64,000 nt of DNA. Origin: Eledone cirrhosa (Eukaryota). The number at the start of each line of letters is the position of its first letter. Positions within the stretch are counted from its first letter, which is position 1. This document shows, one piece after another, positions 8,351-61,965 of this stretch. Under the pieces are notes generated by a model. It did not search any database, was not told where the DNA came from, and worked only from the letters and a program-made list of their open reading frames with translations. The translations under genes were made by a program, and so were the position numbers. Location: the NCBI GenBank assembly GCA_964016885.1, contig OZ024742.1:265856001-265920000 (forward strand), read 5' to 3'.

Positions 8351-8840
8351 AGCCATTCTTCCATTTTCTTTAGTCTACACTTCCCATTGATACACACACA
8401 ACAACACATGCGAGGCCTGCATACATTCAATAAAAAAACGTGCATCCTCGTAGGTTGCCACATACACAATATATATATATATACCGCATACAGGCTCTCA
8501 CATGCACCTACATACCACTCGTACACACATCCTCAAACACACAGAAAAATAAACACATTCCCACGTCTAACACACGTATGAATACGATTCATTCGCACAT
8601 CTACACTACAGTATTCCACACCAGGCTTCACACATGCAGACACACATACCAGCGCATATATAAACACATCCACTATACTCCCCACGTTCATGCATCATAC
8701 ACGCTGACATCTATGTACACCCACCCACACATACAAACATTAACACAGACGCACACTTACACAAACACGTACACGCCATCATCACACACATATCTACACA
8801 GGCATTGTCAGTTAGATACGCCCGTACATTAATATATACA

Positions 8841-9027
8841 TGGGCGGTGGATTGGCAGTATCGGTAGAGGGTCAGGTCAGACGCCATGCTTTGTTGCATA
8901 GAGTTACGGCCCTTTACGGTCTGAGTTCAAATCCCGCCGAGGTTAACTTTGCCTTTCATCCTTACGGGGTCGATAAAGTACCAGTAATATACGGAGAATT
9001 TCTGGTCTTGTGCCAAATGTAGAAACA
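8841..9027 (+). mobile_element. tRNA-derived SINE with 13-bp TSD
   Basis: Family consensus; ATTAATATATACA at 8828-8840 and 9028-9040. Confidence 0.9.
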
Positions 9028-9924
9028 ATTAATATATACAGACTGATACATGTATGCACAAGTACACACACTCACACTTTAACAAGCAGATACACACTGA
9101 CACGGCATACTGACAAGCACACACACACGTATATTATATATACACATTGATATACTGATTCACATGCACTCACAACGATATACACACCAACATACGATAT
9201 ATCTGCACACAAGTTCTTTTCTCCCGCGGAAGTAAAATCAAACTTTTTCTCCTTTAGCATTATATGTTTTATTATGCAATTACAATTCGTTTACACTAAA
9301 CTCTATGCTATCTACATTTTCTTCTCACTTATATGTGCACGTAACAACCTAGTCTATTTTCAACACACACCATTCCTATTTCACACATACACTACGCTAT
9401 ACAGTTTTCCAATATCTAATATTATACAAGTACACAAAATATTCAGTTCAGATCGTACACACATATACACAAGTACATGTAGTTATATACCAAACTAAAA
9501 ACGTTACACTTAAACAAAAACAAGATTTAATTCACATATGCACACACAACGCCATGACATTAATTCCTTATTGAGTGGTAGGAGCGCTGTCGTTACAAAA
9601 CCCCTCCAGGGGGGGGGGGGTAAAAAGAACAAGAAAGAGGGAGTGACATAGAGATAAGAAGGCAGAATTGACCCCAGGGATGAATTGGGGTTTTATCTAT
9701 CGACCTCCAATGGATGACCCCACTGTAACCTGAACTCAGAGAGCAGAGCCGGAAAGAATAATGTGAAACATTCTATTCAATGTTCTAACCACTGTACCAA
9801 TTCACCACTAAAACGTAGCTTACCACATCTTTTTACAAAGAAAAGACCCAATCTAAATCGTACACACACACACACACACACACATATATATGTAACCCAT
9901 TAGCAACCACGCAGCACGTTTATT

Positions 9925-14786: not shown

Positions 14787-14975
14787 TGCGGTGGATTGGC
14801 AGTATCGGTAGAGGGTCGGACACCATGCTTTGCAGCAAAGAGTTACGGCCTTTTATGGTCTGAGTTCAAATCCCGCCGAGATTAACTTAGCCTTTCATCC
14901 TTATGGGGTCGATAAAATAAAGTACCAGTAATACCCTGGGATAATTGCTGGCCTTGTGCCAAAAGTAGAAACAAT
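14787..14975 (+). mobile_element. tRNA-derived SINE
   Basis: Near full-length match to the family consensus. Confidence 0.9.
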
Positions 14976-15706
14976 TATTTATCAATGAAAACAGAAAAAT
15001 ATGATAAAATAATATATACTATTACGAAAACACGTAAAGAAAGTACACACTGGGTGAATGTTCCCAGATGCCGTATAATTAATAACTCAAAATATCTCGA
15101 AATAGATACCCATATATTAATGGGGGAATACACAGTATATAATGTGGTTCTATAGTCGCTACTAGAATTCAACAATATGCATACGTTATACACATACCAG
15201 AACAAAATTGTACTTAATTTGTTTTTAATTACTAGTGCCTTAACATTGTTTCGTTATGATTCTGTAATATGGACAAGCCGCAATCATAAGGTTCCGGATT
15301 CGATCCTACAGCGTGGCATCTTGGATGAGAGTAATTTTTTTTAGTTTTGGGTTGACACAAGCAATGGGACTGATATCGGGGAGAGGAAAGTGGTTTGGAA
15401 GCCTGTCGAAGGGATTATAATTCAAAGAGCAGTTGTGTCACATACTGTCACGTTGAATCTAACTAGCAAGTTATACCAATCCTGTCTGATTCTCTCAAAA
15501 TTAAATAAACCATGAAAGAATACAAGATAACATGTAGCACACATTTACAGGAAAATCATAGTGATAGACCTCGAAATTAGATTTTAGCTAGTACAGCAAT
15601 CGGTCTTGTATGTCGTCGTAACAAAATGAAATTCCACATTACTATTACAAGTAAAATTACGCTCATACACCCAGAAACTTTTATTATATAACAATACACC
15701 ACTATA

Positions 15707-15895
15707 TGGTGGTGAATTGGCAGTATCGGTAGAGGGTCAGACGCCATGCTTTCTAGCATAGTTATGTCCCTTTATGATCTGAGTTCAAATCCCGCCGAGG
15801 TTAACTTTGCCTTTCATCCTTACGGGGGTCGATAAAATAAAGTACCAGTAATGCACTGGGGTAATTGCTGACCTTGTGTCAAAAGTAGAAACAAC
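15707..15895 (+). mobile_element. tRNA-derived SINE
   Basis: Near full-length match; ACTATATG on both sides (possible TSD). Confidence 0.9.
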
Positions 15896-16267
15896 TATAT
15901 GTCTGATCTGTGTGTTTATGTAGAGGAGAACTTCGTTTGCGACTGATACTGCTGTGTTACACTTTTCTAACTAAATGAGCAAGCACAGCAAGCAAACGTC
16001 ACCACCAAGTCTGGAATAGTAAGAAGCATTCTGGTCAACTCAAGTAGCTTGAGTAAGGCAGTGTTACATTTGATTGGAGGAAATGTCACGAAAAAGTGTT
16101 AATCAACTCACAGAATTCATTAACGGCATTCATAAATTTTCCAGCCAGTTATTATAACCAGCATGGTATTCACGAGCCACTTGACCACACCTAGTTTTCC
16201 TAGTACCAGATATACTAAGTAATATGTATCTTTGTGTTGTACTGTTCAGAATTACCGGCAATATGTT

Positions 16268-24735: not shown

Positions 24736-25091
24736 GCGCACGCGCACGCGCACACACACATACTCATTCTTCCAGGCATATGTACATGTGGATTATACAA
24801 ACTTATTTAAACATGAGCGGCCATTTAGACGCACACAAGGCTCACACACAGACATGCATACATACATACGCAAGTGTATACTCTTAGACATATATGCATA
24901 CACGTAGATATGCGTGCCCAATCTCATTTACAACTGCATATACACATACTGCACTTACATGCCACACATAGTTACCCATAGGCACACCCAGCAAACTCTT
25001 TGTAGATATCTTTCTACAAAGAGAAATGAATAGGCGTCATGTAAATTAGTCTGTGAATTTCAGTTAAGTTTTGGTTTGTGAGAGACATAAA

Positions 25092-25277
25092 TAATTGTTT
25101 CTACTTTTGGCACAAGGCCAGCAATTATCCAGTACATTACTGGTACTTTATTTTATCGACCCCGTAAGGATGAATGGCAAAGTGAACCTCGGCGGGATTT
25201 GAACTCAGATCGTAAAGGGACGTAACTATGCTGTAAAGCATGGCGTCCGACCCTCTACCGATACTGCCAATCTACCA
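25092..25277 (-). mobile_element. tRNA-derived SINE
   Basis: Reverse-complement match to the family consensus. Confidence 0.9.
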
Positions 25278-27826: not shown

Positions 27827-28650
27827 ATGGTGATGATGGCTGCCCCCTCGTTATCGAGTATGGCCATTGTACGATATACCATTATTGGTAATTATTAATT
27901 AATTCTATCTAAGGGCGGTGAATTGGCAGTATCGGTAGAGGGTCTGACATGCTTTCCAGCATAGTTACGTCCCTTTACGTTCTGAGTTCAAATCCCGCCG
28001 AGGTTAACTTTGCCTTTCATCCTTACGGGGTCGATAAAATAAAGTACCAGTAATGTACTGGGTAATTGCTGGCCTTGTGTCAAAAGTAGAAACAATTAAT
28101 TAATTCTATCGTGCAATGCCTGTGAGCAAAGATGTTTTTTTATATGAGGAAAGACTGTACACTGAGCCAATCCCACTCTCTGAGCGACAGTAGCTATAAC
28201 CCGAAAAGAAGAAAAGATCAACATCATCGGTAACTACTGAGCCGCAGGTTTTATGTCGGAGTTATCCCAGTTTCCTGAATTGCCTTCTCCTAGAAGAATG
28301 CCCTGACAAAGGCTAGGGATCCTTCACTCCCAGTGGTTTAACCGCGCGATCGGGTATCCAGCCCGACTATTTCTATGTCCCCGCGCATATACATATACAT
28401 ACACATGCATATGTACATGTGTATATACATATTTACACATTTTTGGATGGCCGTTGAGTCTTATGAGTTCTTCCGCCCTTTGTCAGGTTTTGTTTTTTGC
28501 CCTGCAGGGTGTCCAAAATCACCCTCCTCACCTTGGTGGGGGTGCCAGTTTAGTCGCCGACGACCCGACCATGCGGCAGGTTGTAGTGGGTTACATGTTA
28601 CCAGTAGCACTAAGAGTGATCCGACATACATACACACATACCTACATACT
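27827..28650 (+). mobile_element. Non-coding repeat copy 2, interrupted by a SINE; a third partial copy follows at ~28655-28970
   Basis: Homology to 25403-26015; ends in ACAT repeats. Copy 3 shares CCAATCCCACTCT.TGAGC and CGCAGGTTTTA with copy 2. Confidence 0.65.
27910..28094 (+). mobile_element. tRNA-derived SINE with 16-bp TSD
   Basis: ATTAATTAATTCTATC at 27894-27909 and 28095-28110. Confidence 0.93.
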
Positions 28651-29241
28651 TAGGTTATGGATGCGTCTCAGTTTCGAGAATTGCCATCCCTTCACATTTT
28701 TCTTATATATGGGTGGCACGAACATGGTGTTTTAGCCCTCCAAGGACTTAAATCCCTTTCTGCATATGCTGCAGCGAAAAAGAAATGAAGGCCATACTCA
28801 GGTAACACACATGAATGTTGTTTAGATCAAGTGATGCCTGTACTTGAAGCTTTTTTCAGTGAAGAGAGTCGTTGCAATGGACCAATCCCACTCTTTGAGC
28901 CACGGTGACAGGTATCCAGGAACAGAACAACTCAATAACATTGGCTGCCGTCAAGTCGCAGGTTTTACATTACAGTTTTTGTGTGTTGTGTGTTGTGTGA
29001 ACACACAACACACAAAAACAAGATGGTGTAGGACAAAACAAAGGGGACGCAAAATAAAAACCTAGTTACTGAGGAGATGACAGAATGTGTGGCGAGAGAG
29101 GTTTGGCAATATATAAACAAACATCCGGTTATCGAACCAACCAATCGGAAATTTATAATAAATTGAAGTGAAAACCAACAGGTGCATGTGTTTTTATTGG
29201 CAGCATGACCCTTCCAAAGTATAACAATATATATATATATA

Positions 29242-29364
29242 ATAATTGTTTCTACATTTGGCACAAGGCCAGCAATTACACAGTACATTACTGGTACTTT
29301 ATTTTATCGATCCCGTAAGGATGAAAGGCAAAGTTAACCTCGGCGGGATTTGAACTCAGATCGT
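29242..29364 (-). mobile_element. 5'-truncated tRNA-derived SINE
   Basis: B box and body present; A-box region replaced by the adjacent element. Confidence 0.85.
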
Positions 29365-29373
29365 AATATATAT

Positions 29374-30038
29374 ATAATAATGAAATACACACACATATTC
29401 ATATGTATATGCGTGTGTGGTGCCCGCCTTAACAAGCATCATCTCTGTGAGGTTGATACGGTTTATCAAGAGACCCCTCAGAAAAAATGACTGTTTCTTG
29501 ACGCGTTATAGCAAGTGAGTAAGTCTCAGAGGCGGAGGGAGAGATTAACAAGTGATACAGTGGTATAAAAAAAGGATTGTTTCTTTCGTAGCAAGTGAGA
29601 ATTTCTCGAGAGGCGAGGAGAGAGATAAACACATGATACAGTGATCACATAAGGGTAGTAAGGTGGACAGTTAGCGAATAACATATTTGCTAGAAAAAGC
29701 AGTTAATACACTCGTGGTTAACTCGACCATAGGGGAATTTGGGACAATATAATAATGAAATACACACACATATTCATATGGATATGTCCGCTTTAACAAG
29801 TTTTCCTCGATGACCGAAAGAACCAAAATAACTAAAATAATTAAATTAACTCCATAATCAGAGCTATTTATCAAATTTCAAAATAGGAAATAATAGACAA
29901 ACATATACCTATTTTTTCTTCAAAGTCCCGACTGCAGTTTCGCCGATCCGTGTGCACTGATTTCTGCACTTTAAAAGTGCATCATCGCTGTGAGGTTGAT
30001 AATATATATATATATATATATATATTATCAACCTCACA
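29374..30038 (-). mobile_element. Retrozyme-like non-coding element, ~543-nt unit with terminal redundancy and split hammerhead
   Basis: GCATCATC(T/G)CTGTGAGGTTGAT at 29436-29457 and 29979-30000 (period 543); circular permutation of 49141-49643; HHR 3' half at 30000-29925, 5' half at 29474-29436. Confidence 0.75.
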
Positions 30039-32043: not shown

Positions 32044-32258
32044 CGGTGGATTGGCAGTATCGATAGGGGGTCGGACGCCATGCTTTGAAACATAGAGCTA
32101 CGGCCCTTTGCTGTCTGAGTTCAAATCCCGCCGAGGTTAACTTTGCCTTTCATCCTTACGGGGTCGATAAAATAAAGCACCAGTAACGTACTGGGGTCAA
32201 TTTAATCGACCCCCCCCCCCAAAAAAAAAAGTACTGGCCTTGTGCCTATACTAGAAAT
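32044..32258 (+). mobile_element. tRNA-derived SINE
   Basis: Family consensus followed by (ATT)n. Confidence 0.9.
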
Positions 32259-36729: not shown

Positions 36730-36879
<150 letters not shown>

Positions 36880-36996
36880 TAAACGGAATAGAAAATGCTG
36901 ACAAATTGTTCACAGTTGAAAAATGGTTTAATTAGGAATAAAAGAGTATTAGTGATTGTATGGGTTAGTATTCAGTTGTGGTTTTAAGTTTTTAAG

Positions 36997-37035
36997 TTTT
37001 TACCGGTTGCGCATTTCTAAATGCTTTTCAAAAAT
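36997..37035 (-). ncRNA. Minimal hammerhead-like motif in the PLE pLTR (second copy at 41246-41283, +)
   Basis: UUU UUGAAAA GCAUUU AG AAAUGC GCAA CCGG UA AAA: U3-A8 core, 6-bp stem II, palindromic CCGG stem III; GCAA replaces GAAA. Confidence 0.5.
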
Positions 37036-37362
37036 AATTTTGAGATAGAGTGTCCGTGCTGTTTGCTCTGATCTGATTAGTTTTGGGAATTCTACCTGTT
37101 TTTATGTTAAAAAAGTGGCTCCAGCGTTATTTTTGTGTTGCAAATATGCTTGTGGTCAAAACAATTTTGATTGGTCGGTAGAGGTCATGTGAATGTAAAA
37201 AGTTGATTTTGCGCCAAGACTGTTTTTATGTTAAAAAAGTGGCTCCAGCAAAAATTCTTGGTCAAAACAATTTTGATTGGTCGGTAGAGGTCATGTGGAT
37301 AAAAAATTGGTTTTGCGCCAAGATTGAGAAATGACTCTTTCACAACAAATATGTGTGTGTGT

Positions 37363-37449
<87 letters not shown>

Positions 37450-37451
37450 TG

Positions 37452-37486
<35 letters not shown>

Positions 37487-37559
37487 AGTAGTAGTAGTAA
37501 GGTGTTCGATGCTGCGACAATGGCCAGCAGCGATGTGTGTCAAATGGCTATTAAGATAA

Positions 37560-37640
<81 letters not shown>

Positions 37641-37950
37641 GCAGAGTCATTCGAAGGTCAAAAGATATTTTTCAACTTTTGTCTTATACGGAGAAGTGCG
37701 TGTGTGTGTTTGTGTGTGTGTATAAGTCTCTTTGTATGTTGATGTATGCGTGTGTATGTGTTTGTGTACATATGTATGTGTGTGTATGTGTGTGTGTGTG
37801 GGTGGACCAGTATTTTTTTCCCCTGGTAAAATGGTGTTCATTATTAGATTTTTTCAGTAAAATCGGTTCTCTTAATAGAACATCAAAAATCTAAACAATA
37901 AAAGGTGTGAAATGATATTCACTATATATATATACACACATACATATATT

Positions 37951-37991
<41 letters not shown>

Positions 37992-38134
37992 TACATACAT
38001 ATATATGCACATATATTTTTTTTGTATTGCACCATAGAGCATGTGTGTTTACGTGTGTCATTGTGTTTATATGTGGGTAGAGATGTGTGCTGATGTAGGT
38101 ATGTATGTTGACGTGTGTATGTTGTGGGTTCGTC

Positions 38135-38848
38135 TTAGGGAGAAGTGTTTAGACGGGGTCCGTATTTGTTAATGAAGTAAGATTCCTTGCTGATGCGCTG
38201 GGTGTGGGTGGCATTATCTTTAAATTTGTAGAGGGGAAAGATTATGAAGTTGGGATGATTTTGGGCGGCACAGGTATCAATGTGTTCACTCAGTGGTATT
38301 TTCCTGTATTCCCATATTTTAATTTGGGATCTATGGACAGTGATGCGTTGGCGGAGGCTGTTTTTGGTCTGGCCTATGTATTGTTCTCGACAACCTGAAC
38401 AAGTTAATACATATATTAGATTTTCCGATGCACATGTGAAATTGTGTTTTACTATAAAACGTTGTCCATCTTTGAAATAGAATTCTGAACCCTCTATTAG
38501 GTTGATGCAAATGCCACAGTTGGGTCTATCGCATTTTTTTACTGTGGGTTTCGTTGTTGTGGTTGGCAGTACTTTGGCATGTGTTAAGATGTTTTTCATT
38601 GACTTGGATTGTCTTTTGCTCTTTATGATATCGTGTGTTCGTAGAATTTGGTTCATTCTATGGTCCCTTTTCAATACAGGGATGTTCTGGAGGATGGTGT
38701 CAAAGGCCTCATTGTTGAGGGGGTTGTGTGTGGAGATGTATGGAAGAGCTTTTAGTTTTGGTTGATTTACTTTAGGGTGTCTAAGGTCCTGGGTACTGAG
38801 TTTTAGGGCACGTTGGATTCCATTGTCAATTAGTGATGCAGGGTAGTC
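38135..38848 (-). pseudogene. Inverted duplicate of the PLE GIY-YIG region
   Basis: ORF 38135-38674 is nearly identical to the C-terminus of ORF 38951-40225. Confidence 0.93.
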
Positions 38849-40225
38849 AACCTATACTCCAACATCCCCCACAACCTAGGAATAGAAGCTATCCAATTCT
38901 GGCTGGATAATTTCCACAATGAACTCCCACAACGCATCAAAAAAGAATTCGTGATAGAGGGACTCAAATTTATCTTGGAGAACAATTACTTCGTTTTCAA
39001 TAACAAACCCTACAGGCAGAAATCTGGGACCGCTATGGGAACGAAAACAGCCCCTACTTATGCCAACCTAGTCATGGGATACCTGGAAATCACCATCTAC
39101 ACTAAAGTCCTAAACAAATTTGGAAACACCCTCCACTTACACATTGAAAGGAACTGGAAGCGATATCTAGATGACTGCTTCATCCTTTGGCACGAAAACA
39201 TCGAAAAACTTAAAGAATTTCACACCCTTATAAATGGGCTCAACACAAATATTAACTTCACGATGGAATACAGCCAGCAACAACTCCCCTTCCTCGACAT
39301 CCTCATTAAGATCCATAACAAAAAAATAGAAACAGACATATACTACAAGCCCACAGACTCCAAGCAATATCTCCCCTTCAACTCTTGCCACCCTAGACAC
39401 GTTAAAATTAATATTCCCTACAACTTAGCCAAGAGAATCTGTACTATAGTCTCCAATAAAAACATCTGCTACTTACGGCTACAAGAACTAAAGGACACAC
39501 TCATAGGCAGGGACTACCCTGCATCACTAATTGACAATGGAATCCAACGTTCCCTAAAACTCAGTACCCAGGACCTTAGACACCCTAAAGTAAATCAACC
39601 AAAACTAAAAGCTCTTCCATACATCTCCACACACAACCCCCTCAACAATGTGGCCTTTGACACCATCCTCCAGAACATCCCTGTATTGAAAAGGGACCAT
39701 AGAATGAACCAAATTCTACGAACACACGATATCATAAAGAGCAAAAGACAATCCAAGTCAATGAAAAACATCTTAACACATGCCAAAGTACTGCCAACCA
39801 CAACAACGAAACCCACAGTAAAAAAATGCGATAGACCCAACTGTGGCATTTGCATCAACCTAATAGAGGGTTCAGAATTCTATTGCAAAGATGGACAACG
39901 TTTTATAGTAAAACACAATTTCACATGTGCATCGGAAAATCTAATATATGTATTAACTTGTTCAGGTTGTCGAGAACAATACATAGGCCAGACCAAAAAC
40001 AGCCTCCGCCAACGCATCACTGTCCATAGATCCCAAATTAAAATACGGGAATACAGGAAAATACCACTGAGTGAACACATTGATACCTGTGCCGCCCAAA
40101 ATCATCCCAACTTCAGAATCTTTCCCCTCTACAAATTTAAAGATAATGCCACCCACACCCAGCGCATCAGCAAGGAATCTTACTTCATTAACAAATACGG
40201 ACCCCGTCTAAACACTTCTCCCTAA
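38849..40225 (+). CDS. PLE reverse transcriptase + Cys-rich linker + GIY-YIG endonuclease (5'-truncated, uninterrupted)
   Basis: Frame open from the junction (NLYSNIPH); GTAMGTKTAPTYANL, KRYLDD, LPFLD, YYKPTDS..YL...SCHP; CDRPNCGIC; NLIYVLTCSGCREQYIGQT...LRQRITVH. Confidence 0.95.
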   Translation, partial: NLYSNIPHNLGIEAIQFWLDNFHNELPQRIKKEFVIEGLKFILENNYFVFNNKPYRQKSGTAMGTKTAPTYANLVMGYLEITIYTKVLNKFGNTLHLHIERNWKRYLDDCFILWHENIEKLKEFHTLINGLNTNINFTMEYSQQQLPFLDILIKIHNKKIETDIYYKPTDSKQYLPFNSCHPRHVKINIPYNLAKRICTIVSNKNICYLRLQELKDTLIGRDYPASLIDNGIQRSLKLSTQDLRHPKVNQPKLKALPYISTHNPLNNVAFDTILQNIPVLKRDHRMNQILRTHDIIKSKRQSKSMKNILTHAKVLPTTTTKPTVKKCDRPNCGICINLIEGSEFYCKDGQRFIVKHNFTCASENLIYVLTCSGCREQYIGQTKNSLRQRITVHRSQIKIREYRKIPLSEHIDTCAAQNHPNFRIFPLYKFKDNATHTQRISKESYFINKYGPRLNTSP

Positions 40226-40544
40226 GACGAACCCACAACATACACACGTCAACATACATACCTACATCAGCACACATCTCTACCCACATATAAACACAAT
40301 GACACACGTAAACACACATGCTCTATGGTGCAATACAAAAAAATATATGTGCATATATATGTATGTATATATGTATATATATATATATATATGTAGTGAA
40401 TATATGTATGTGTGTATATATATATAGTGAATATCATTTCACACCTTTTATTGTTAAAATTGTTGATGTTCTATTAAGAGAACCGATTTTACTGAAAAAA
40501 TCGAATAATGTACACCATTTTACCAGGGGGAAAAAAATACTGGT

Positions 40545-40605
<61 letters not shown>

Positions 40606-40731
40606 CACAAACACATACACACGCGTACATCAACATACAAAGAGACTTATACACACACACACACACACGCGCGCACTTCTCCGTATAAGACAAAAGCTGA
40701 AAAATATCTTTTGACCTTCGAATGACTCTGC

Positions 40732-40774
<43 letters not shown>

Positions 40775-40843
40775 ATCTTAATAGCCATTTGACACACATC
40801 GCTGCTGGCCATTGTCGCAGCATCGAACACCTTACTACTACTA

Positions 40844-40931
<88 letters not shown>

Positions 40932-41442
40932 TTGTTGTGAAAGAGTCATTTCTCAATCTTGGCGCAAAATCAATTTTTTATCCACATGACCTCTACCGAC
41001 CAATCAAAATTGTTTTGACCAAGAATTTTTGCTGGAGCCACTTTTTTAACATAAAAACATTCTTGGCGCAAAATCAACTTTTTACATTCACATGACCTCT
41101 ACCGACCAATCAAAACTGTTTTGACCACAAGCATTTTTGCAACACAAAAATAACGCTGGAGCCACTTTTTTAACATAAAAACAGGTAGAATTCCCAAAAC
41201 TAATCAGATCAGAGCAAACAGCACGGACACTCTATCTCAAAATTATTTTTGAAAAGCATTTAGAAATGAGCAACCGGTAAAAACTTAAAAACTTAAAACC
41301 ACAACTGAATACTAACCCATACAATCACTAATACTCTTTTATTCCTAATTAAACCATTTTTCAACTGTGAACAATTTGTCAGCATTTTCTATTCCGTTTA
41401 CCAATATATAATAACTTGTGTGTTACACCTCTATTCTTTTAA

Positions 41443-41466
<24 letters not shown>

Positions 41467-41473
<7 letters not shown>

Positions 41474-42552: not shown

Positions 42553-42799
42553 ATATATATATATATACACACAGTCGTGACTGTTTAAGAGGATACCATT
42601 CTAGTTTGTTTCACAGCCTTTGTCAACTGATAGATTGCCTAATGAGGTATTTACTCCAACAGCCAAACTCGTTTTAGAATTGTTCGTTATATTCTGAGTA
42701 AAATTTATATGTAAACAAATGACCACCCAACATTTATATTCAAACAGAAGACCACACAACATGTATATATAAGCAGATAGCCATTCCACTTCTATATTT

Positions 42800-45290
42800 A
42801 AAAAGATGGACTCTTACTAATGAGATCCAAACAGATGTCCTCTTAACATTCATATCTAAACAGATTACCTCTTAACATTCGTATTTAAACAGATGTCCTC
42901 TGAACATTCGTATATAAAAAGATATCCTCTTAACATTCATATTTAAACAGATGTCCTTTGAACATTAATATTTAAACAGATGTGCTTTTAACATTCATAT
43001 TTAAACAGATGTCCGCTTACCATTCGTATTTAAACAGATGACCTGTTAACATTCATATTTAAACAAATGTCCTCTTAACATTCATATTTAAACAGATGTC
43101 CTCTTAACATTCTTATTTAAACGGATATCCTCTTAACATTCATATTTAAACAGATGTCCGCTTAACATTCATATTTAAACAGATGTCCTCTTAACATTCA
43201 TATTTAAACAAAACTTCTCTCAACATTCATATTTAAACAGATGTCCGCTTACCATTCGTATTTAAACAGATGACCTGTTAACATTCATATTTAAACAAAT
43301 GTCCTCTTAACATTCATATTTAAACAGATGTCCTCTTAACATTCATATTAAAACAGATGTCCTCTTAACATTCATATTTAAACAGATGTCATCTTAACTT
43401 TCATATTTAAACAGATGTCCTCTTAACATTCATATTAAAACAGATGACCTCGTAACATTCATATTAAAACGGATGTCCTCTTAACATTCATATTTAAACA
43501 GATGTCCGCTTAACATTCATATTTAAACAGATCTCCGCTTAACATTCATATTTAAACAAAACTTCTCTCAACTTTCATATTTAAACAGGTGTACTCTTAA
43601 CATTCATATTTAAACAGATGTCCTCTGAACATTAATATTTAAACATATGTCCTTTAAACATTAATATTTAAACAGATGTCCTCTTGACATTCATATTTAA
43701 ACAAATCTTCTCTCAACATTCATATTAAAACAGATGTCCTTTTAACATTCATATTTAAACAGATGTCCTCTTAACATTCATATTGAAACAGATGTCCTTT
43801 TAACATTCATATTTAAACAGATGTCCTCTTAACATTCATATTTAAACGGATGTCCTCTTAACATTCATATTTAAACAGATGTCCGCTTAACATTCATATT
43901 TAAACAGATGTCCGCTTAACATTCATATTTAAACAGATGTCCGCTTAACATTCATATTTAAACAGATGTCCGCTTAACATTCATATTTAAACAAAACTTC
44001 TCTCAACATTCATATTAAAACAGATGTCCTTTTAACATTCATATTTAAACAGATGTCCTCTTAACATTCATATTGAAACAGATGTCCTTTTAACATTCAT
44101 ATTTAAACAGGTGTCCTCTTAACATTCATATTTAAACGGATGTCCTCTTAACATTCATATTTAAACAGATGTCCGCTTAACATTCATATTTAAACAGATG
44201 TCCGCTTAACATTCATATTTAAACAGATGTCCTCTTAACATTCATATTTAAATAGATGCCCTCTTAACATTCATATTTAAACAGATGTCCTCTTAACATT
44301 CATATTTAAACAAAATTTCTCTCAACATTCGTATTTAAACAGATGTCCTCTTAACATTCGTAACATTTGTTTCACAGCCTTTGTCAACTGATAGATTGCC
44401 TAATGAGGTATTTACTCCAACAGCCAAACTCGTTTTAGAATTGTTCGTTATATTCTGAGTAACATTTATATGTAAACAAATGACCACCCAACATTTATAT
44501 TCAAACAGAAGACCACACAACATGTATATATAAGCAGATAGCCATTCCACTTCTATGTTTAAACAGATGGACTCTTACTAATCTCTTAACATTCATATCT
44601 AAACAGATTACCTCTTAACATTTGTATTTAAACAGATGTCATCTGAACATTCGTATATAAAAAGATATCCCCTTAACATTCATATTTAAACAGATGTCCC
44701 CTGAACATTAATATTTAAACAGATGTGCTTTTAACATTCATATTTAAACAGATGTCCGCTTAACATTCGTATTTAAACAGATGACCTGTTAACATTCATA
44801 TTTAAACAAATGTCCTCTTAACATTCATATTTAAACAGATGTCCTCTTAACATTCTTATTTAAGCGGATGTCCTCTTAACATTCATATTTAAACAGATGT
44901 CCGCTTAACATTCATATTTAAACAGATGTCCTCTTAACATTCATATTTAAACAAAACTTCTCTCAACATTCATATTTAAACAGATGTCTGCTTAACATTC
45001 GTATTTAAACAGATGACCTGTTAACATTCATATTTAAACAAATGTCCTCTTAACATTCATATTTAAACAGATGTCCTCTTAACATTCTTATTTAAACGGA
45101 TGTCCTCTTAACATTCATATTTAAACAGATGTCCTCTTAACATTCATATTTAAACAGATGTCCTCTTAACATTCTTATTTAAACAGACGTCCTCGTAACA
45201 TTCATATGAAAACAGATGTCCTCTTAACTTTCATATTAAAACAGATGTCCTTTTAACATTGATATTAAAACAGATCTCCACTCCACATTA
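42800..45290. repeat. 29-bp satellite in two arrays separated by a duplicated unique leader
   Basis: Unit TTAACATTCATATTTAAACAGATGTCCTC; leader 42605-42820 repeated at 44366-44581 (period 1761). Confidence 0.97.
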
Positions 45291-49140: not shown

Positions 49141-49643
49141 GGTCATCGAGCAAACCTTGTAAAGGCGGACACCACACACACACATATACATATGAATATG
49201 TGTGTGTATTTCATTATTATATTGTCCCAAACTCCCCTATGGTCGAATTAACCACGAGTGTATTAACTGCTTTTTCTAGCAAATACGTTATTCGTTCACT
49301 GTCTACCTTACTACCCTTCTCTGACCACTGTATCGTGTTTATCTCTCTCCTCGCCTCTCTAGAAATTCTCACTTGCTACGAAAGAAACAATCCTTTTTTT
49401 TTTACCACTGTATCATGTGTTAATCTCTCCCTCCGCCTATGAGACTTTCTCACTTGCTATAACGCGTCAAGAAACAGTCCTTTTTTCTGAGGGGTCTCTT
49501 GATAAACCGTAGCAACCTCACAGCGATGGTGCACTTTTAAAGTGTAGAAATCGGTGCACACGGATCGGCGAAACTGCAGTCGGGACTTTGAAGAAAAAGT
49601 AGGTATATTTTTGTCTATTATTTCCTCATAGTTTGTAATTTGA
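49141..49643 (+). mobile_element. Retrozyme-like non-coding element (permuted relative of 29374-30038)
   Basis: High similarity to the reverse complement of 29436-30000 with a different start point; flanked by (TA)n; contains a complete HHR. Confidence 0.78.
49494..49586 (+). ncRNA. Type I hammerhead variant (U3-A8 core, large stem II insertion, palindromic minimal stem III)
   Basis: GUCUC UUGAUAA ACCG-(~56 nt)-CGGC GAAA C UGCA G UC|GGGAC; predicted cleavage after C49581. Confidence 0.68.
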
Positions 49644-49678
49644 TATATATATATATATATATATTATAAAGAGTCGGG

Positions 49679-49770: not shown

Positions 49771-50149
49771 GTAGTTTGTCCAAATAAGGGCACACACTGT
49801 TTATTCAATTATAAATAATCTTCATATAGATGCTAATTTTTTTTTAATCAGGCTTAGTGAGTGTTTATATGTATATGTGCGTCTGTGTGCGCATCTGGGT
49901 GTATCTCCCTGGTCAACTTGAGATGGAATAATTATGTAGAGGAGGTCGAAGTATATTTATCGAGAAAATATATTAAGGTGAATGTGTGTATGTGTATGTC
50001 TGTTCCTAGGCTTGGTTATCGCGACCTTCAGATAACAGGTCTTGGGAATACTACTTTTATCCAGTTCCACATCGAGAATTACTATTACCACTCTTGGGGG
50101 TCGCAATAGATTACGTCTGGAATATAATACCCATTCGTAATCATGAAAT

Positions 50150-51300
50150 CGACATAATTCCACACGCTTGGAAGGCCGTCTGGCTTTTTGAAAACTTGGA
50201 TAAAAAGAGCCCTAGACTCACCCTTCGATGTTTGTATGGGAGCAACCGACTTTGCGGAGGTTACAGACCTGATAGGCCTGTACAAACTCCAGAAACTAAT
50301 AGAAAAGTTTCCTGCTCTGGGGTTTGGGGGGAGGTCTGTACCGGATACAACCCCAGTATTACAGGCCGGGTTCGCAAACATCTCATCAAGTTCTTCCGGG
50401 AATAAGGATTTAAGGTTACCTTACAGGCATCCCTCACCAACTTCTCGGAGAACCAATTGCACTCTCCTTTCCGGAAACCTGATGAAAACTTATATTACAT
50501 CCACCGATTCTCAAACTACCCAAAGAATATAACTAAAAATTTGGTATGATCTCCCTCCGTATATCACGCTTGTCTGCTAACGAGCAGATATTCAAGGAAC
50601 ATGCGCCGCACTACAACCATGCCCTTAAAAAGCAGATTTAAAGAAGAACTTACCTACTACCCAAGCCCTATTGCTCGCGCAACATAACGGGATTTAATCC
50701 TCCTCACAATGCTGAAGTCACCACACCAATTGCGAACATTTTCTTCAAACTTCTCAATAAACACTTCCCACCACACCATCGCTACCACAACATCAACAAA
50801 AACAATCAAACTTTCTTACATCACCACACCCAACATCGCACAAATTATCGCGTCCACAAACACTGCCGAATTCAATTCTAAAAGATTCCATTCTGACCTT
50901 AATAAGGAGGAATCCAGGAAATATAATTTCATGAATAAAACACATTGCTCTTTAAACAACAAATGCCGGCAACACAACCTCGTGCACAAGTGCAACGTCA
51001 CGATGGAACATACCAACAAAGCCTACATCGAATTAACCAACTGCGAATTCAAGGCAAGGTTTTATCAACATACCTTTAGAACCCGGCCCGGAGAAATGCT
51101 ACAACACTGTCTAGCCATATTTGGGATCTCGGTGACAACATCACCTATGAACTGAATAGGAGCTCCTTGTCCAAAACCAAATAGGATACAGGAGGAGTCT
51201 GTCCGTGCAATTTGTGCTCTGAGGAGACAATCCAAATGTTGTTCGCCAAGGAACAATAATTAAACACCGGATTTACAAAACAATTGCTTGCGGACAGCCT
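50150..51300 (+). pseudogene. Decayed Penelope-like element (different lineage from the Neptune copy)
   Basis: FDVCMGATDFAEVTDLIGLY (cf. MGSYDGAE.C.LVGLY), PFRKPDENLYYIHRFSNYP, CSLNNKCRQHNLVHKCNV...YIELTNCEFKARFYQH (GIY-YIG remnant). Confidence 0.75.
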
Positions 51301-51454
51301 CCATGACCCCACTAGAAACACACATAGGTACCCTAGATAAAAGTAGGCCCATTACATTGAATAATAAATAGTTGTCACTTTGTTAATAGATATATTTTCC
51401 ATTCGGTGAACTTGGACTATTTTTTGATTGGGAATCTTCTGCTAGATCTGACGC

Positions 51455-56637: not shown

Positions 56638-56687
<50 letters not shown>

Positions 56688-56688
<1 letters not shown>

Positions 56689-56853
56689 GCTACTTTTGGC
56701 ACAAGGCCAGCAATTATCCTAGTGCATTACTTGTACTTTATTTTACCGACCCCGTAAGAATGAAAGGCAAAGTTAACCTCGGCGGGATTTGAACTCAGAA
56801 TGACAGGGGCCGTAACTCTATGCGTCAAAGCATAGTGTCCGACCCTCTACCGA
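56688..56853 (-). mobile_element. tRNA-derived SINE followed by an (AAT)n/(ATT)n tract
   Basis: Reverse-complement match to the family consensus. Confidence 0.88.
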
Positions 56854-56991
56854 TAAATAATAAATAGGGAACAAAGAATCAATATTGTATCATATACATA
56901 TTTATTTACATATTACATATGTTTCACTGCCGACTAGCTCGAGGAATATATATAAAACTGTTTGAGTATGTAAGCATTCTTTGGTTTCTTT

Positions 56992-57140: not shown

Positions 57141-60100
57141 TTAACATTTATCTTTAAATGACTGAATGACTGACGAATTTAAAGAAAATTCGTTATAAGA
57201 ACATTTAATTTGTTTTACTGAAGTGCTTTTGGATACACAATGTTTTTTTGTTTTTCCTTCTGGTGCGTACACGAATAAATCAGAAGGTTTACCGACGCGT
57301 GAGCAAGCCACATACAGCTGTCCATGTGAGAAGCATGGATTTTCTAAATTTAGTCCACACACTTGTAGCGATTGTCCTTGTGCTTTGTTGATAGTCATTG
57401 CAAAGGCGAGTCGCACTGGAAACTGCAAACGTTTGAAATCGAATGGCGTATCTGTTGGAATGATTGGGATGCGTGGCAAGAGTACATCTTCTACTTTAAA
57501 TTTTCCATTTAAAATTGTAGCCTCGATGATATTGTTCATCGTCTTTTTCACTGAAAGTCTGGTACCGTTGCAAAGTTGTGGTGGATTGATGTTTCGGAGA
57601 AGGATGATAGGCACGCCAATTTTCAATGTTAAAATGTGCGGTGGCATGCCTGGCAAATCAAGTGAATTCAAGAATTCAATTGGATAATTGATAATTTCGT
57701 CTTGATTCATTACAGTATCGATGGACTTATACGTTGTCGCTTCGCCTGGTATTTCGTTTTGAATGCTGAAATTAATGGCATTGACATCGGTGTTTTTGGC
57801 TGCTAATATAGCACTGATGATTTTTGTAATGCTGCGCAATATTTGGGAACACTTTGTGAATCAGTTCGTCTCTGGTTGCCGTGATTCTACAGAAGTTTGT
57901 TGGCAATGTGATACATTTTGTGGAATCATCGATTACCATTTTCCCATTCCCAATATCCAGCAATTGTTTTGTGAAACGTTCAGCGGATGCGTCATTTTGT
58001 AGTTGTACACGCATATTGTTTTTTAAAGTTAATTTCTGTACGTGTCGCCATAAAACTGATGATTTGAGACATGCATTAAGCTCATCAGCGGGTGTTGATC
58101 GCGGTATAATTGGTAGAGTTTGTCGAAAATCACCAGACAATAAAATGAGTGTGCCACCGAAGAGCTGTTCATTTCCTTTCAAATCTTTTAGCGTATTATT
58201 AAGCGCTTCCAATGATTGTTTATGCTCCATAGTACATTCGTCCCATATAATGATTTTACATGATTGGAGTACTTTACCTATACCAGAATTTTTGGTAATA
58301 TTGCATGTTGATGTCTCAGCAATTTGCATATTCAATGGCAATTTCAGGGCTGAATGTGCTGTTCGGCCACCATCTAAAAGAGTTGCCGCAATTCCAGATG
58401 ATGCGATTGCCAGTGCAATATTATTTTCTGATCGTATAGTTGCCAAAATAAGTGAAATGAGAAACGTTTTGCCTGTACCACCGGGCGCATCTATAAAATA
58501 CAATCCGCCGCTTTGACTTATAATTGCCTGCATAATTTGGTCATATACTATGCGTTGTTCTGGTAGCAATTTGGGAAGATTCGTTTGAACAAATGTACCC
58601 AATTCGGCGACATCAAAGTTTGTTTCTCGTTGCAAATCACGATCGAAAATGTCGTTTACAGATCGATTCGGCGCAGGCATTCCCAATAGTACCAATGTTT
58701 TGTTAGCGATTGCTAAACATATGACCTCAATGGAAACCAATGCTTCATTATACACATTTGGTGTGAATTGAATATTCATATTTTGATTTGTTGCACGCAA
58801 ACGATGTAGGATGTCTTCACTCATGTAGTCTTTATATTTTTCCCAAAGATCTTTTGGATTTGATGGGAAGCACGTTGTCAATATTATTGAGAATAATGTG
58901 CGTATTTGCTTTGGTCGAGCAGTATTCGATGCATCAGCGAGTGAAGTGTCCCAATGTCCATCATTTTCAAGAAGATTTAATTCTTGGCAAGCTTGACGAT
59001 AAGTGGCACATACTTGACCGTTTACTGTTCTCAATTCTTGGAATGATGTCGGTCCACGTATGTTAATTAACAACAATCGCAAATAAAAGCATTCTGCATT
59101 ATTTGGGTGAACAGTGTACAAACGGCCTAACGCGTCGGTCGAATATAAATTTGGATGTCCTTCAACTACTTTACCCTGTTTGCGACGTTTAAACTTTTTC
59201 GTTGGTGTATTCCATGTGTAATATGTTGGCACTTCAGAATAAAGTAGTGTCTTTGCAAACACATCTTCGCTGCACAATGAGAAAAACGCAGTTAACGTTG
59301 TTGGCGGTGGTGTCAGTGCCCTTGCACGTACATTTTCAGTTGTGAAGTATACGCGCTGTTCATGTTCAAGGTGCACCGCCAAATGAACAACTGTTGGATG
59401 TCGATGATGGATTGGAAATGATAAAATGCGCCATACTGCTTCATTACTACTAATGTAGCGTCCCAGTTGGTTTTGGTCGATTTCATCGATAAGTGTAGTT
59501 GCATTGCACACTCCAAAGACTGCCATATCGCTTCCTTTGTTGATATATTTGCAAATGTACTTGATCGCTTTCACCGAATTGCAATACTCGACATTGATGT
59601 GTGCTTTGAACGTCTTCGAGAGTAACGGTGAATATGGTACAACCCAACGATTATTGACTTCAACATAATTGTTTCGTACTTTTAAAGTGATGGATTTGCC
59701 GCCATCTTCAGTTGCTCGTCGACGATAGAGTGGATATCCGTCATTGCCAGTGATAGTGTCGGCAAGTAAGTCTTTTGGGTATTGTTTCGTGCATTTCCCA
59801 TCAGACATGCATGGTGAATTGTTGTTGAGTAAGCCACATGGACCATGAATCATGTTTTTAGTGATGACTTCAAATAAGTCTGGATCAACGTTGACATCTG
59901 GTATTTCTGCTGAGATGATTTGATCAATTTGATCTGGTGTGACTTTTTCAATCAACCAAATCAAAATGTGTGCATGTGGCAATCCTCTTTTTTGCCATTC
60001 AATGGAATACATCCAACAGCGTGTCTCTCCAAAAACATGATGCTTGACAATGAAATCGATTAAAGATTTCAATTTTTGTTTGAACACACGCGCTGTAATA

Positions 60101-61649
60101 TCATGACGATCCGAAGATGATTGACCAGGTAACAAAAGTTCTTTAATTTCATCCCATGATTGCATGTGAATGTAATGAACAAATCTGGACGGCCATATGC
60201 GCGAACATATGTCATTGCATCTTGTGCGTATTCATGCATGTGCCGTGGACTCCCTGTAAATGTAGCCGGCAGTATGACCATGTTCCCCAATTCATTAGGA
60301 TTCATATTGCCATCATTAAGAATGGCATCACGTAAATGAATGTACTCTTCTGAACGTAGCTCGGTTTGATTCAATCGAATGTAGAGAAGTCGTTCGGTTT
60401 CGATTTTTGCATACATATCGACAATGTATTGATGGAACAATTGTCGACATTTCAAAATATGATTTTCACCGTTTTCACGAATCATTAATCTATATGAATA
60501 ATAATTCATGGCACTGACTTTCTTATTCGTTTCCTCATCTGTTTCTGGATTTCTCAGTTTGATGTTGAAATGATATCCATCTTCTCCTTGCCAAAATAAA
60601 ATTGGATATTGCAATCCATCGTATGACCGATGCGTTTCTGAGACTCGCTGAACATCACCATTTCTGCGGTGAAGAATTATATCACGCGAGTTAAATTCTT
60701 CACCTACTATAACGATCGCCACTTCATCAATTGTTGGTGCATTGTACTGTCTTTGATGTTGGCCAACAGGTGTTTTGTCTGCTCTAACTACAATTGTGTA
60801 GTCATCATTTGGCATTTGTTCCAGGGCAGCTCTGAACAATCTAATTAATTTGTTGTGTTGATTGAATAAAGTTTGTAATGCAGTAACAATTTCTCGTTTA
60901 GTTCCCCTATTGAATTTGCAACGTTGATCTATTTGGTCATCAGTGTTTCCCATGAAATAAATTTGAAGAAATTTGTGATCTGCGTCCGGCAGTGGTAGTA
61001 GTGATCCAGCACGATGATAAATTTGCCCTTGCACTTTGAATGTTGGCATGTAATTCTCGCGCACGATATTTGTTGCACCGAACGATGTCATTTGGAAACA
61101 TGAATTGTACTTGCGTATGTTTGCCAAGAAATGTTTAGATTCGCTTGTGTCACCTGATACTAACGTTGATAATGGTTCAGGTGGTGGATGTAATTCTGGC
61201 AATTTCACTTTTCCACCCGAGCAGCACATTCCTGGTGTTTCATTTTTAAATTTGAGGGCACCACAATACCCGCATAATTTATCCATTTTTCCAATAATCA
61301 CACTTGGATGAAGACTGTAATCACAATTTGAATCGTAATGAAATGCACCAAGATTGAAATCATCGTGCAGTATTCTTCTTGTGAGAGCATTGCGTAGTCG
61401 ATTCGTTTCCAATCTTGCTTTCCGTTGCTCGTCTGTTTCAGATGAACGGGCTTGAGCAGTTCTTACTCGAACGGTTTGCAATCTTGCTTCCCGTTGCTCG
61501 TATGTTTCAGATGAACGGGCTTGAGCAGTTCTTACTCGAACGGTTTCCAATCGTGATTCCCGTTGCTCGTATGTTTCTGAAGCTCGTAATGCATATTTTT
61601 TCGTTGCTTGAGGGGTAGATTGACCAATCACTCGTCGTTTGGGAGGCAT
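57141..61649 (-). pseudogene. Helitron Rep/Helicase split by frameshifts near 60160 and 57810
   Basis: Zn finger CGYC...CC; PDLFITFTCN; HUH motif QKRGLPHAHILIW; YICKYINK; Walker A DAPGGTGKT; IIWDE; GDFRQ; RLQFPVRLAFAMTINKAQGQS; HGQLYVACSRV (PIF1-like). Confidence 0.95.
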
Positions 61650-61658
61650 AATTGAATA

Positions 61659-61965
61659 GAAAATATTTTATCACAATCACTCTACCGAAATGAGAAGTAG
61701 TGTGAAATACGTATGAAGAACTCAATGTAATCGAAATGTAGAAGGAGTCATAACCAATATGTATGTGTTGATTGATGATATAAACAATTGTAAAAACAGA
61801 GTGAAAAAATAAAGGAAAATATTTTATCACAATCACTCTACCGAAATGAGCAGTAGTGTGAAATACGTATGAAGAACTCAATGTAATCGAAATGTAGAAT
61901 GAGTCATAACCAATATGTATGTGTTGATTGATGATATAAACAATTGTAAAAACAGAGTGAAAATA
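61659..61965. repeat. 156-bp tandem duplication upstream of the Helitron ORF
   Basis: GAAAATATTTTATCACAATCACTCTACCGAAATGAG at 61659 and 61815. Confidence 0.92.

What the first reader, a model, noticed from the sequence alone, without database searches (positions are those of the whole stretch)
49494..49586. Unusual hammerhead architecture: UUGAUAA core, multi-hairpin stem II insertion, GAAAC-UGCA-GUC minimal stem III
Seen: CUGAUGA is replaced by UUGAUAA in both copies of the family (also on the minus strand at 29469-29463), a compensatory C3-G8 to U3-A8 change. Stem II encloses ~56 nt including the hairpin UGCACUUU-U-AAAGUGCA (perfect in the 29-kb copy). Stem III is 2 bp closed by palindromic UGCA. 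Known: positions 3 and 8 form a Watson-Crick pair in the active HHR, and PLE-associated minimal HHRs with palindromic stem III can cleave as dimers. Inference: a variant that standard HHR descriptors would probably miss. The 10.1-11.1 pair is an A-C mismatch, so these copies may be weak.
Basis: partly seen in the sequence, partly recalled or inferred. Interest (0 to 1): 0.78.

Follow-up and report, generated by a model that had tools for sequence, protein, structure and literature searches.

The report
Long-armed hammerhead ribozyme in mobile repeat
This is a decayed copy of a hammerhead self-cutting RNA motif carried by a short non-coding mobile repeat; the family has an unusually long second arm and a predicted pseudoknot, likely cuts as a pair, and is one of several such families in this animal genome that current search tools miss.

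Summary
The motif is real: a type I hammerhead (U3-A8 core, 56-nt loop II, palindromic 2-bp stem III, predicted cut after 49581) in a ~560-nt non-coding repeat. Copies are circularly permuted, sometimes tandem or inverted, and mostly end in (TA)n, as expected of a retrozyme-like element moved by Penelope-like elements (PLEs); no linked ORF was found. Comparison supports the hammerhead: position 7 varies freely, stems covary, and a homologous sister family has C3-G8. Corrections: U3-A8 and palindromic stem III are published for PLE hammerheads; the A-C mismatch is decay (G in 144 of 168 copies); the insertion is one long hairpin above an internal loop; the 29-kb copy is permuted and has no complete in-order ribozyme. 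New here: the 5' side of that internal loop is complementary to the 5' tail of stem I, a predicted 5-bp pseudoknot kept in the same register, with changed letters, in five further repeat families. Three patterns give 121, 344 and 862 long-loop matches genome-wide (controls 3, 92, 18). Rfam and the published descriptor miss them. Cleavage and expression are untested. Verdict: new variant of a known kind.

The parts
49141..49649 (+). Copy of the non-coding repeat (509 nt of a 558-nt permuted unit) that carries the hammerhead
   Evidence: family copies 85-94% identical
49324..49486 (+). Internal ~80-bp duplication typical of the young subfamily, absent from older subfamilies
49488..49492 (+). 5' tail of stem I (UGAGG), predicted pseudoknot strand
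49494..49498 (+). Stem I, 5' strand
49499..49505 (+). Core positions 3-9, UUGAUAA (U3-A8)
49506..49513 (+). Stem II basal helix, 5' strand; two changes in this copy break pairs that the family keeps
49516..49520 (+). CCUCA in the 5' side of the stem II internal loop, predicted pseudoknot partner
49521..49556 (+). Long irregular hairpin inserted in loop II (apical part 49530-49546)
49563..49569 (+). Stem II basal helix, 3' strand
49570..49581 (+). GAAA, palindromic stem III (49573-49580) and GUC triplet; predicted cut between 49581 and 49582
49582..49586 (+). Stem I, 3' strand
49644..49663 (+). (TA)n at the 3' junction, the commonest 3' end class of the family
29436..30001 (-). Second, circularly permuted copy (slightly more than one unit): 3' half of the ribozyme first (GAAA at 29941), 5' half last (29469-29463)
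29372..29436 (-). Extra piece of the same unit ending at the second preferred 3' end, followed by (TA)n

Best explanation
The stretch is a decayed genomic copy of a type I hammerhead motif in a ~450-560-nt non-coding dispersed repeat that is likely a retrozyme-like passenger of Penelope-like retroelements, and the intact family motif is predicted to cut as a dimer, held in shape by a pseudoknot between the 5' tail of stem I and an internal loop of a hairpin-extended stem II. Shown by sequence and comparison: conserved core, covarying stems, self-complementary stem III in every family, permuted and tandem copies, two preferred 3' ends at TA-rich sites followed by (TA)n, inverted segments, no ORF. 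Inferred: read-through transcripts of more than one unit pair two palindromes into an 8-bp helix III (double hammerhead), cut after GUC, and give unit-length RNA that may be circularised; a PLE RT/GIY-YIG protein nicks (TA)n and starts reverse transcription at an internal site, which gives 5'-truncated, permuted or longer-than-unit copies. The inserted hairpin likely stacks on stem II away from the core; its own role is not shown. The window copy itself is likely weak or dead.
For: Core and stems are invariant across subfamily majority sequences (6 groups: core 12/12, stem I 10/10, stem II base 6/6, stem III 6/6; flanks 58/142; position 7 variable), Fisher p 1e-6 to 1e-11 over three clusterings. 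In two sets picked on upstream non-ribozyme DNA the core is still kept and position 7 is U, A, C or G. Sister family F, homologous outside the ribozyme (62% over 264 nt, E 8e-12), has C3-G8, a rewritten stem II and inner hairpin, and a 12-nt stem III palindrome; subfamily E lengthens the palindrome by 2 nt and keeps it. Named structure on 20 rows from five groups: 89.8% of cells paired against 79.9% shuffled and 29-46% slid; both-sided changes in stem I, stem II, the 3-8 pair and 2 of 5 pseudoknot pairs. Pseudoknot strands: UGAGG/CCUCA (A, D, E), UGAGG or UGGGG/CCUCG (F; 20 of 21 copies with >=5 bp counting G-U), UGGGC/GCCCR (G), UGAGU/ACUCG (L323, read by eye) and UUGUAA/UUACAG (H), each 5-7 nt before position 3 and 7-10 nt after position 9; background for >=5 Watson-Crick pairs between such windows is 2.2%. 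For copy L006 the free dimer minimum equals the double-hammerhead fold (-63.3 against 2 x -24.0 kcal/mol). 16 tandem ribozyme pairs 438-762 nt apart. Of 137 segments in 119 loci, 76 end at one site and 23 at a second, 72 of these 99 next to (TA)4, against 3 of 38 other ends; 16 of 119 loci hold inverted segments. No long frame in the unit. An apparently active (TA)n-associated PLE with its own long-stem-II hammerhead is in the genome.
Against: No cleavage or expression data. Sets A-C were picked by similarity or by patterns that contain the core, which inflates invariance; in the unbiased sets the margin per copy is modest (core 0.91 against flank 0.82-0.83). The pseudoknot strands alone are not clearly more invariant than flanks (7/10; p 0.01-0.19) and many single copies have lost them (>=5 Watson-Crick pairs in 13/20, 3/17, 21/47, 2/6, 2/3 copies of sets A-E). 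Families G and H show no BLAST similarity to the window unit (tested for G; not tested for H), so their changed pseudoknot letters may be convergent, and in H the partner strand is partly paired in the predicted minimum fold. RNAalifold on 48 decayed copies recovered no hammerhead. Monomer hammerhead folds lie 2-7 kcal/mol above the minimum (pseudoknot not modelled), and for two of three copies the free dimer minimum is not the double hammerhead. Circular folding of 4 of 16 tandem units gave mixed z-scores (-2.4, -0.4, -0.4, -4.5; 12 shuffles). No autonomous partner was tied to the unit. In an Anolis PLE the hammerhead was dispensable for insertion in vitro and needed protein (PMC11167929, passages); 8 of 9 Xenopus retrozyme dimers did not cleave (bioRxiv 2026.07.22.740005).
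Confidence: 0.7

Rival explanations
1. The unit is the pseudo-LTR of an autonomous PLE not yet sampled; the copies seen are 5'-truncated insertions, not an independent non-autonomous element.
For: PLE insertions are mostly truncated and PLE hammerheads mostly occur as solo motifs (PMC4209133). PLE ORF fragments lie within a few kb of about 20 of 212 family loci, one directly downstream in the window (50010-51250). One family-G copy lies 1.2 kb behind a near-complete decayed PLE ORF on the same strand.
Against: Those ORFs are in either orientation, of different families and separated by simple repeats. 24 other copies of the neighbouring remnant carry no unit. The active 6-kb PLE has a different hammerhead and no similarity to the unit. 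Tandem copies run unit into unit with no ORF between. The G copy is separated from the ORF tail by another repeat fragment.
Confidence: 0.15
2. The hammerhead works as a monomer; the pseudoknot compensates for the weak stem III and the palindrome is a relic, or the tail/loop pairing is a folding switch and not an activating contact.
For: Pseudoknots raise rates by orders of magnitude in other hammerheads (PMC3088659, passages). Subfamily E and family F can form 3-4 bp stems III alone. Most invertebrate retrozyme hammerheads cleave as monomers (PMC7761336, passage). Most copies are under one unit long.
Against: The stem III loop stays self-complementary through four rewrites (UGCA, UGCGCA, CACCGGUG, GAUC, also GCGC), which a monomer would not need; the young family's 2-bp stem III is not formed in any monomer prediction.
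Confidence: 0.1
3. The motif is a catalytically dead relic, or the structure is kept for protein binding (PLE RT recognition) and not for cleavage.
For: The window copy is decayed; no RNA evidence; PLE hammerheads cleave poorly in vitro (PMC4209133).
Against: Exactly the catalytic positions are kept while position 7 and the stems change, over families about 60% identical.
Confidence: 0.05

Closest known systems
Minimal and small-helix-III type I hammerheads of Penelope-like elements (Cervera and de la Pena 2014, PMC4209133; results, discussion and supplement passages read)
   Same: Type I, stem I 4-5 bp, helix II longer than usual, G10.1-C11.1, palindromic helix III, U3-A8 variant (Schistosoma Cercyon, ~1,300 hits), dispersed and inverted copies.
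   Different: Loop II is 40-100 nt with internal loop and hairpin (descriptor 3-10 nt); no extra base after position 9 in this family; predicted pseudoknot, whereas PLE motifs are described as lacking tertiary contacts; no ORF linked.
Metazoan non-LTR retrozymes (Cervera and de la Pena 2020, PMC7229834, passages; Li et al. 2026 bioRxiv 2026.07.22.740005, parts 1-3 of 5)
   Same: Non-coding repeat unit with one type I hammerhead, GC under 45%, tandem dimers, proposed PLE mobilisation, dimer cleavage in amphibian forms.
   Different: Unit 440-760 nt against the usual 150-400 (range 51-972 reported by Li et al.); mostly dispersed monomers or less, no long arrays seen; no canonical loop 1/loop 2 contact; (TA)n junctions; circular RNA not shown.
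Pseudoknotted hammerheads (Perreault et al. 2011, PMC3088659, passages; includes human C10orf118)
   Same: Watson-Crick helix of about 5 bp joining the stem I side to loop II; natural U3-A8.
   Different: There the partner is not described as an internal loop under a long hairpin in the passages read, repetitive type I motifs were left out of that analysis, and the motifs are not tied to a palindromic dimer stem III.
'HHR half core' motifs in Naiad elements (Craig et al. 2021, PMC8557442, passages)
   Same: Core halves 35-50 nt apart that do not fit descriptors; (TA)n targets for Naiad and microsatellite bias for Neptune.
   Different: Not resolved there as folded ribozymes; different PLE clade; here stems and pseudoknot are supported by comparison.

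Membership tests
Type I hammerhead ribozyme | Core C3-U4-G5-A6-N7-G8-A9 with a 3-8 pair, G12-A13-A14, A15.1-U16.1, H17 | tested here: met
   Met with the known U3-A8 change; position 7 free; sister family C3-G8. 7 of 84 exact-pattern copies have U3-G8.
Type I hammerhead ribozyme | Three stems around the core, stem I open | tested here: met
   Both-sided changes in stems I and II across families; stem II z -3 to -5.6 in three intact copies. Window copy partly broken.
Type I hammerhead ribozyme | G10.1-C11.1 pair | tested here: met
   Family: G in 144 of 168 copies. Not met in the two window copies.
Type I hammerhead ribozyme | Tertiary contact between stem I and stem II sides | tested here: inconclusive
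   Predicted pseudoknot in constant register with changed letters; invariance test alone weak; no probing.
Type I hammerhead ribozyme | Match to an Rfam hammerhead model | tested here: not met
   None at E<=10 for window or L004; HH9 14.6 bits, E 0.53, for a family F copy.
Type I hammerhead ribozyme | Site-specific self-cleavage | not testable with these tools
   Needs an assay.
PLE-associated minimal hammerhead | Short palindromic helix III | tested here: met
PLE-associated minimal hammerhead | Extra unpaired base between 9 and 10.1; loop 2 of 3-10 nt | tested here: not met
   G10.1 follows A9 directly; loop 56 nt.
PLE-associated minimal hammerhead | Located in the pseudo-LTR of an RT + GIY-YIG ORF | tested here: not met
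   No shared ORF junction in 212 loci with 1.5-4 kb flanks or behind 24 copies of the neighbouring remnant; the sample is not the whole family.
Non-LTR retrozyme | Non-coding unit with one type I hammerhead, in tandem | tested here: met
   16 tandem pairs 438-762 nt apart; no long frame; only dimers seen.
Non-LTR retrozyme | Monomer of about 150-400 nt, GC under 45% | tested here: inconclusive
   GC 0.38-0.43 met; length above the usual range, inside the 51-972 range of Li et al..
Non-LTR retrozyme | Accumulates as linear and circular unit-length RNA | not testable with these tools
   Needs RNA from the organism.
PLE-mobilised element | Variable 5' truncation, fixed internal 3' ends, inverted segments, microsatellite targets | tested here: met

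The most novel reading that the evidence does not exclude
This genome holds a whole overlooked class of type I hammerheads: thousands of copies in many PLE-dependent repeat families, in which loop II has grown into a 40-115-nt hairpin domain while a Watson-Crick pseudoknot to the 5' tail supplies the tertiary contact, combined with a dimer-forming palindromic stem III. These would be fast, dimer-gated ribozymes with a protein-binding handle for the PLE reverse transcriptase, invisible to Rfam and to published descriptors, so the animal hammerhead census is well short and the view that PLE-type hammerheads lack tertiary contacts fails for this lineage.
Probability: 0.4. Interest if true: 0.68.

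Novelty: new variant of a known kind. Interest (0 to 1): 0.52.

Why it matters
The role of hammerheads in PLEs and their passengers is open, partly because tested motifs cut poorly and are said to lack tertiary contacts. A family with a simple predicted pseudoknot gives a direct disrupt-and-rescue test, and shows that constructs trimmed at stem I would lose the contact. It also shows how large a loop II insertion nature tolerates, and that descriptor limits on loop II hide over a thousand motif-matching copies in one genome. The single copy flagged is decayed and ordinary; U3-A8 is not new.

Tried and rejected
Rfam scan of the whole window: only simple-repeat miRNA matches among the 150 of 173 rows shown. 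Folding the window copy alone: no hammerhead, z 0.05. RNAalifold on 48 copies: no useful structure. C3-G8 version of the young family's 16-mer: 0 matches; C3-G8 appears only in the distant sister family. An extended stem I (U-tract with A-tract) seen in the young subfamily is not kept in D, E, F, so rejected as a family trait. A 169-codon open frame in one copy is not a family trait. Link to the PLE remnant at 50010-51250: rejected. Link to the active 6-kb PLE by sequence: none. Expression: no RNA holder listed; laying three contig runs of unrecorded kind, one sample, only showed many variant copies. Metagenome pattern scan: 0 matches. Earlier findings by place and by sequence: none. Lunse, Weinberg and Breaker 2017 was not held and Arkhipova et al. 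2017 on Terminons was not read; either could already describe long loop II forms. One of three supplement files of PMC4209133 was not searchable and bioRxiv supplements were not seen.

Full report
Observation. The motif is at the stated place: stem I 49494-49498 with 49582-49586, core UUGAUAA 49499-49505, 64 nt to GAAA at 49570, the 8-nt palindrome 49573-49580 and C17 at 49581. A relaxed long-loop descriptor hits the window once and none of 100 composition-matched random windows. The window copy alone does not fold as a hammerhead (z 0.05) and Rfam shows no hammerhead there. The second locus at 29.4-30.0 kb (minus strand) is a circularly permuted copy: the hairpin and GAAAC..GUC half come first, the UUGAUAA half about 500 nt later, in the next unit.

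The element. The window lies in a 3.0-Gb animal assembly; a 141-nt query gave 944 first-look candidates, 40 scored. Copies map to a 558-nt unit that can start anywhere and run past one unit. Of 137 segments of 100 nt or more in 119 loci, 76 end at one site and 23 at a second; 59 and 13 of these abut (TA)4, against 3 of 38 other ends (some loci overlap, and 'other' includes alignment breaks at an internal duplication). Sixteen of 119 loci have inverted segments and 16 tandem ribozyme pairs lie 438-762 nt apart. The unit has no frame longer than shuffles give. Variable 5' ends, fixed internal 3' ends, inversions and microsatellite targets are PLE traits (PMC8557442 passages; PMC11167929 passages). 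No ORF is tied to the unit: PLE fragments near about 20 of 212 loci are in both orientations and of several families, and 24 other copies of the PLE remnant next to the finding carry no unit. The genome does hold an apparently active PLE (68 of 68 scored matches 98-100% identical, 830-codon frame, 6-kb tandem unit), related to the window's RT plus GIY-YIG ORF (Pfam itself gave no RT hit); I call it Neptune-like from recalled motifs, without a tree. It has its own hammerhead with a 116-nt rod as stem II and no similarity to our unit.

Is it a hammerhead? The family stem II is GCCG/CGGC continued by three more pairs; position 10.1 is G in 144 of 168 copies and A in 11, so the A-C mismatch is decay. 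An exact 20-mer has 84 matches, 77 with U3-A8, 7 with U3-G8, none with C3. A looser pattern gave 121 matches against 3 for the reversed control and revealed older subfamilies. To limit bias I picked two sets on upstream, non-ribozyme DNA: their majority sequences keep the core, put A or C at position 7, rewrite the upper stem II pairs, and in subfamily E lengthen the palindrome by two bases while keeping it. Across subfamily majority sequences the core and stems are invariant far more often than flanks (p 1e-6 to 1e-11), though sets A-C were chosen with the core and the per-copy margin in the unbiased sets is 0.91 against 0.82-0.83. Family F, homologous outside the ribozyme (62% over 264 nt, E 8e-12; 2,545 first-look candidates), has C3-G8, a different stem II and inner hairpin, and a 12-nt palindrome. 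On 20 rows that I picked from the 29 listed, the named structure is paired in 89.8% of cells (shuffles 79.9%, slides 29-46%), with the 3-8 pair U-A in 14 and C-G in 6; these rows are related and hand-picked, so the number is no probability. RNAalifold on 48 decayed copies found nothing.

The arm and the pseudoknot. In three intact copies from families A, E and F the region folds alike: basal helix of 6-7 bp, a 6-7-nt 5' internal loop, one long hairpin, a 5-6-nt 3' loop (z -4.6, -5.6, -3.1; window copy -0.3). The 5' loop is complementary to the tail before stem I (49488-49492 with 49516-49520). F keeps it with G-U changes in 20 of 21 copies. Further families found by pattern keep a 5-6-bp complement in the same register with other letters: G (UGGGC/GCCCR), L323, which shares stem I with our family (UGAGU/ACUCG, read by eye), and H (UUGUAA/UUACAG in 4 of 30 loci, one more with a compensatory change). 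Background for five Watson-Crick pairs between such windows is 2.2%. Against: the strands alone are not clearly more invariant than flanks (p 0.01-0.19, partly an alignment shift in E), about half of single copies in sets A-E fall below five pairs, homology of G and H to our unit is not shown, and in H the partner is partly paired in the predicted fold. I put the pseudoknot at about 75%.

Scale. Patterns with other stem III palindromes gave 344 matches (control 92) and 862 (control 18), with 40-115 nt between the core halves, both C3-G8 and U3-A8. Only the first 100 of each were listed and 12+10 and 30 loci examined. Long loop II is thus common in this genome's hammerheads.

Mechanism. Stem III is self-complementary in all families examined. 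For copy L006 the unconstrained dimer minimum is the double hammerhead (-63.3 kcal/mol against 2 x -24.0); for two other copies it is not. The likely cycle, by analogy with retrozymes (PMC7229834 passages; PMC7761336 passages): read-through transcription of more than one unit, dimer cleavage after GUC, possible circularisation, and PLE-driven insertion at (TA)n from internal start sites. Cleavage, circles and the partner are inferred, not shown; circular folding was mixed in the 4 of 16 units tried.

Known and new. U3-A8 is known in nature (PMC3088659) and in PLE hammerheads (PMC4209133); palindromic helix III and dimer cleavage are known; pseudoknots are common in other hammerheads; animal retrozymes as PLE derivatives are proposed (bioRxiv 2026.07.22.740005). 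PLE-type hammerheads are described as lacking tertiary contacts, the published descriptor caps loop 2 at 10 nt, and Craig et al. noted unresolved half cores 35-50 nt apart. Nine paper searches showed no description of a hairpin-extended, pseudoknotted form in animal repeats in the listings and passages I saw; Lunse 2017 was not held and Arkhipova 2017 was not read. Verdict: works like a PLE-type or retrozyme type I hammerhead; a new architectural variant; the flagged copy is decayed. Interest 0.52.

Noticed in passing
window 36810-41469: Penelope-like element with RT and GIY-YIG (ORF 38837-40225) in a long inverted arrangement, arms 98-99% complementary; no hammerhead found by my descriptors.
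   Followed up: partly
window 49900-51370: Decayed PLE remnant (RT and GIY-YIG fragments) with an inverted 5' piece, right after the finding; a separate insertion.
   Followed up: yes
L159 2321-2455 and 2741-5231 (G000 C2): Apparently active PLE family, 830-codon ORF, 6.06-kb tandem unit with a 3-kb simple-repeat-rich tail; hammerhead with CUGAAGA core, 116-nt rod stem II and GAUC palindrome about 400 nt before the ORF. Relatives of this hammerhead with U3-A8 in L297.
   Followed up: partly
L225-L254: Family F: ~700-nt sister repeat, about 2,500 first-look candidates, C3-G8 hammerhead with 52-nt stem II region and 12-nt stem III palindrome.
   Followed up: yes
L257, L259-L266, L292-L296: Family G: ~690-nt tandem unit, hammerhead with a two-hairpin junction of about 96 nt in stem II and a predicted pseudoknot.
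   Followed up: partly
L302-L331: Two or more very abundant families with GCGC-loop stem III, 60-nt stem II region and stem I of only 2-3 bp; 862 pattern matches.
   Followed up: partly
L061 1490-1570: Another U3-A8 hammerhead candidate with a long, non-palindromic stem III that could work as a monomer; single copy seen.
   Followed up: no
window 57141-61667 (-): Helitron-like Rep/helicase frames (assignment recalled from motifs, not scanned).
   Followed up: no
window 42608-45200: Array of about 80 copies of a 29-nt unit.
   Followed up: no
window 838-1028, 8828-9038, 14788-14982, 15708-15904, 25080-25276, 27914-28110, 29236-29366, 32044-32195, 56676-56855: About nine copies of a ~190-nt SINE-like repeat, often abutting the hammerhead repeat in other loci.
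   Followed up: no
L066 3240-3360, L103, L262: Short palindrome-rich repeat inserted at (TA)n beside several family copies.
   Followed up: no
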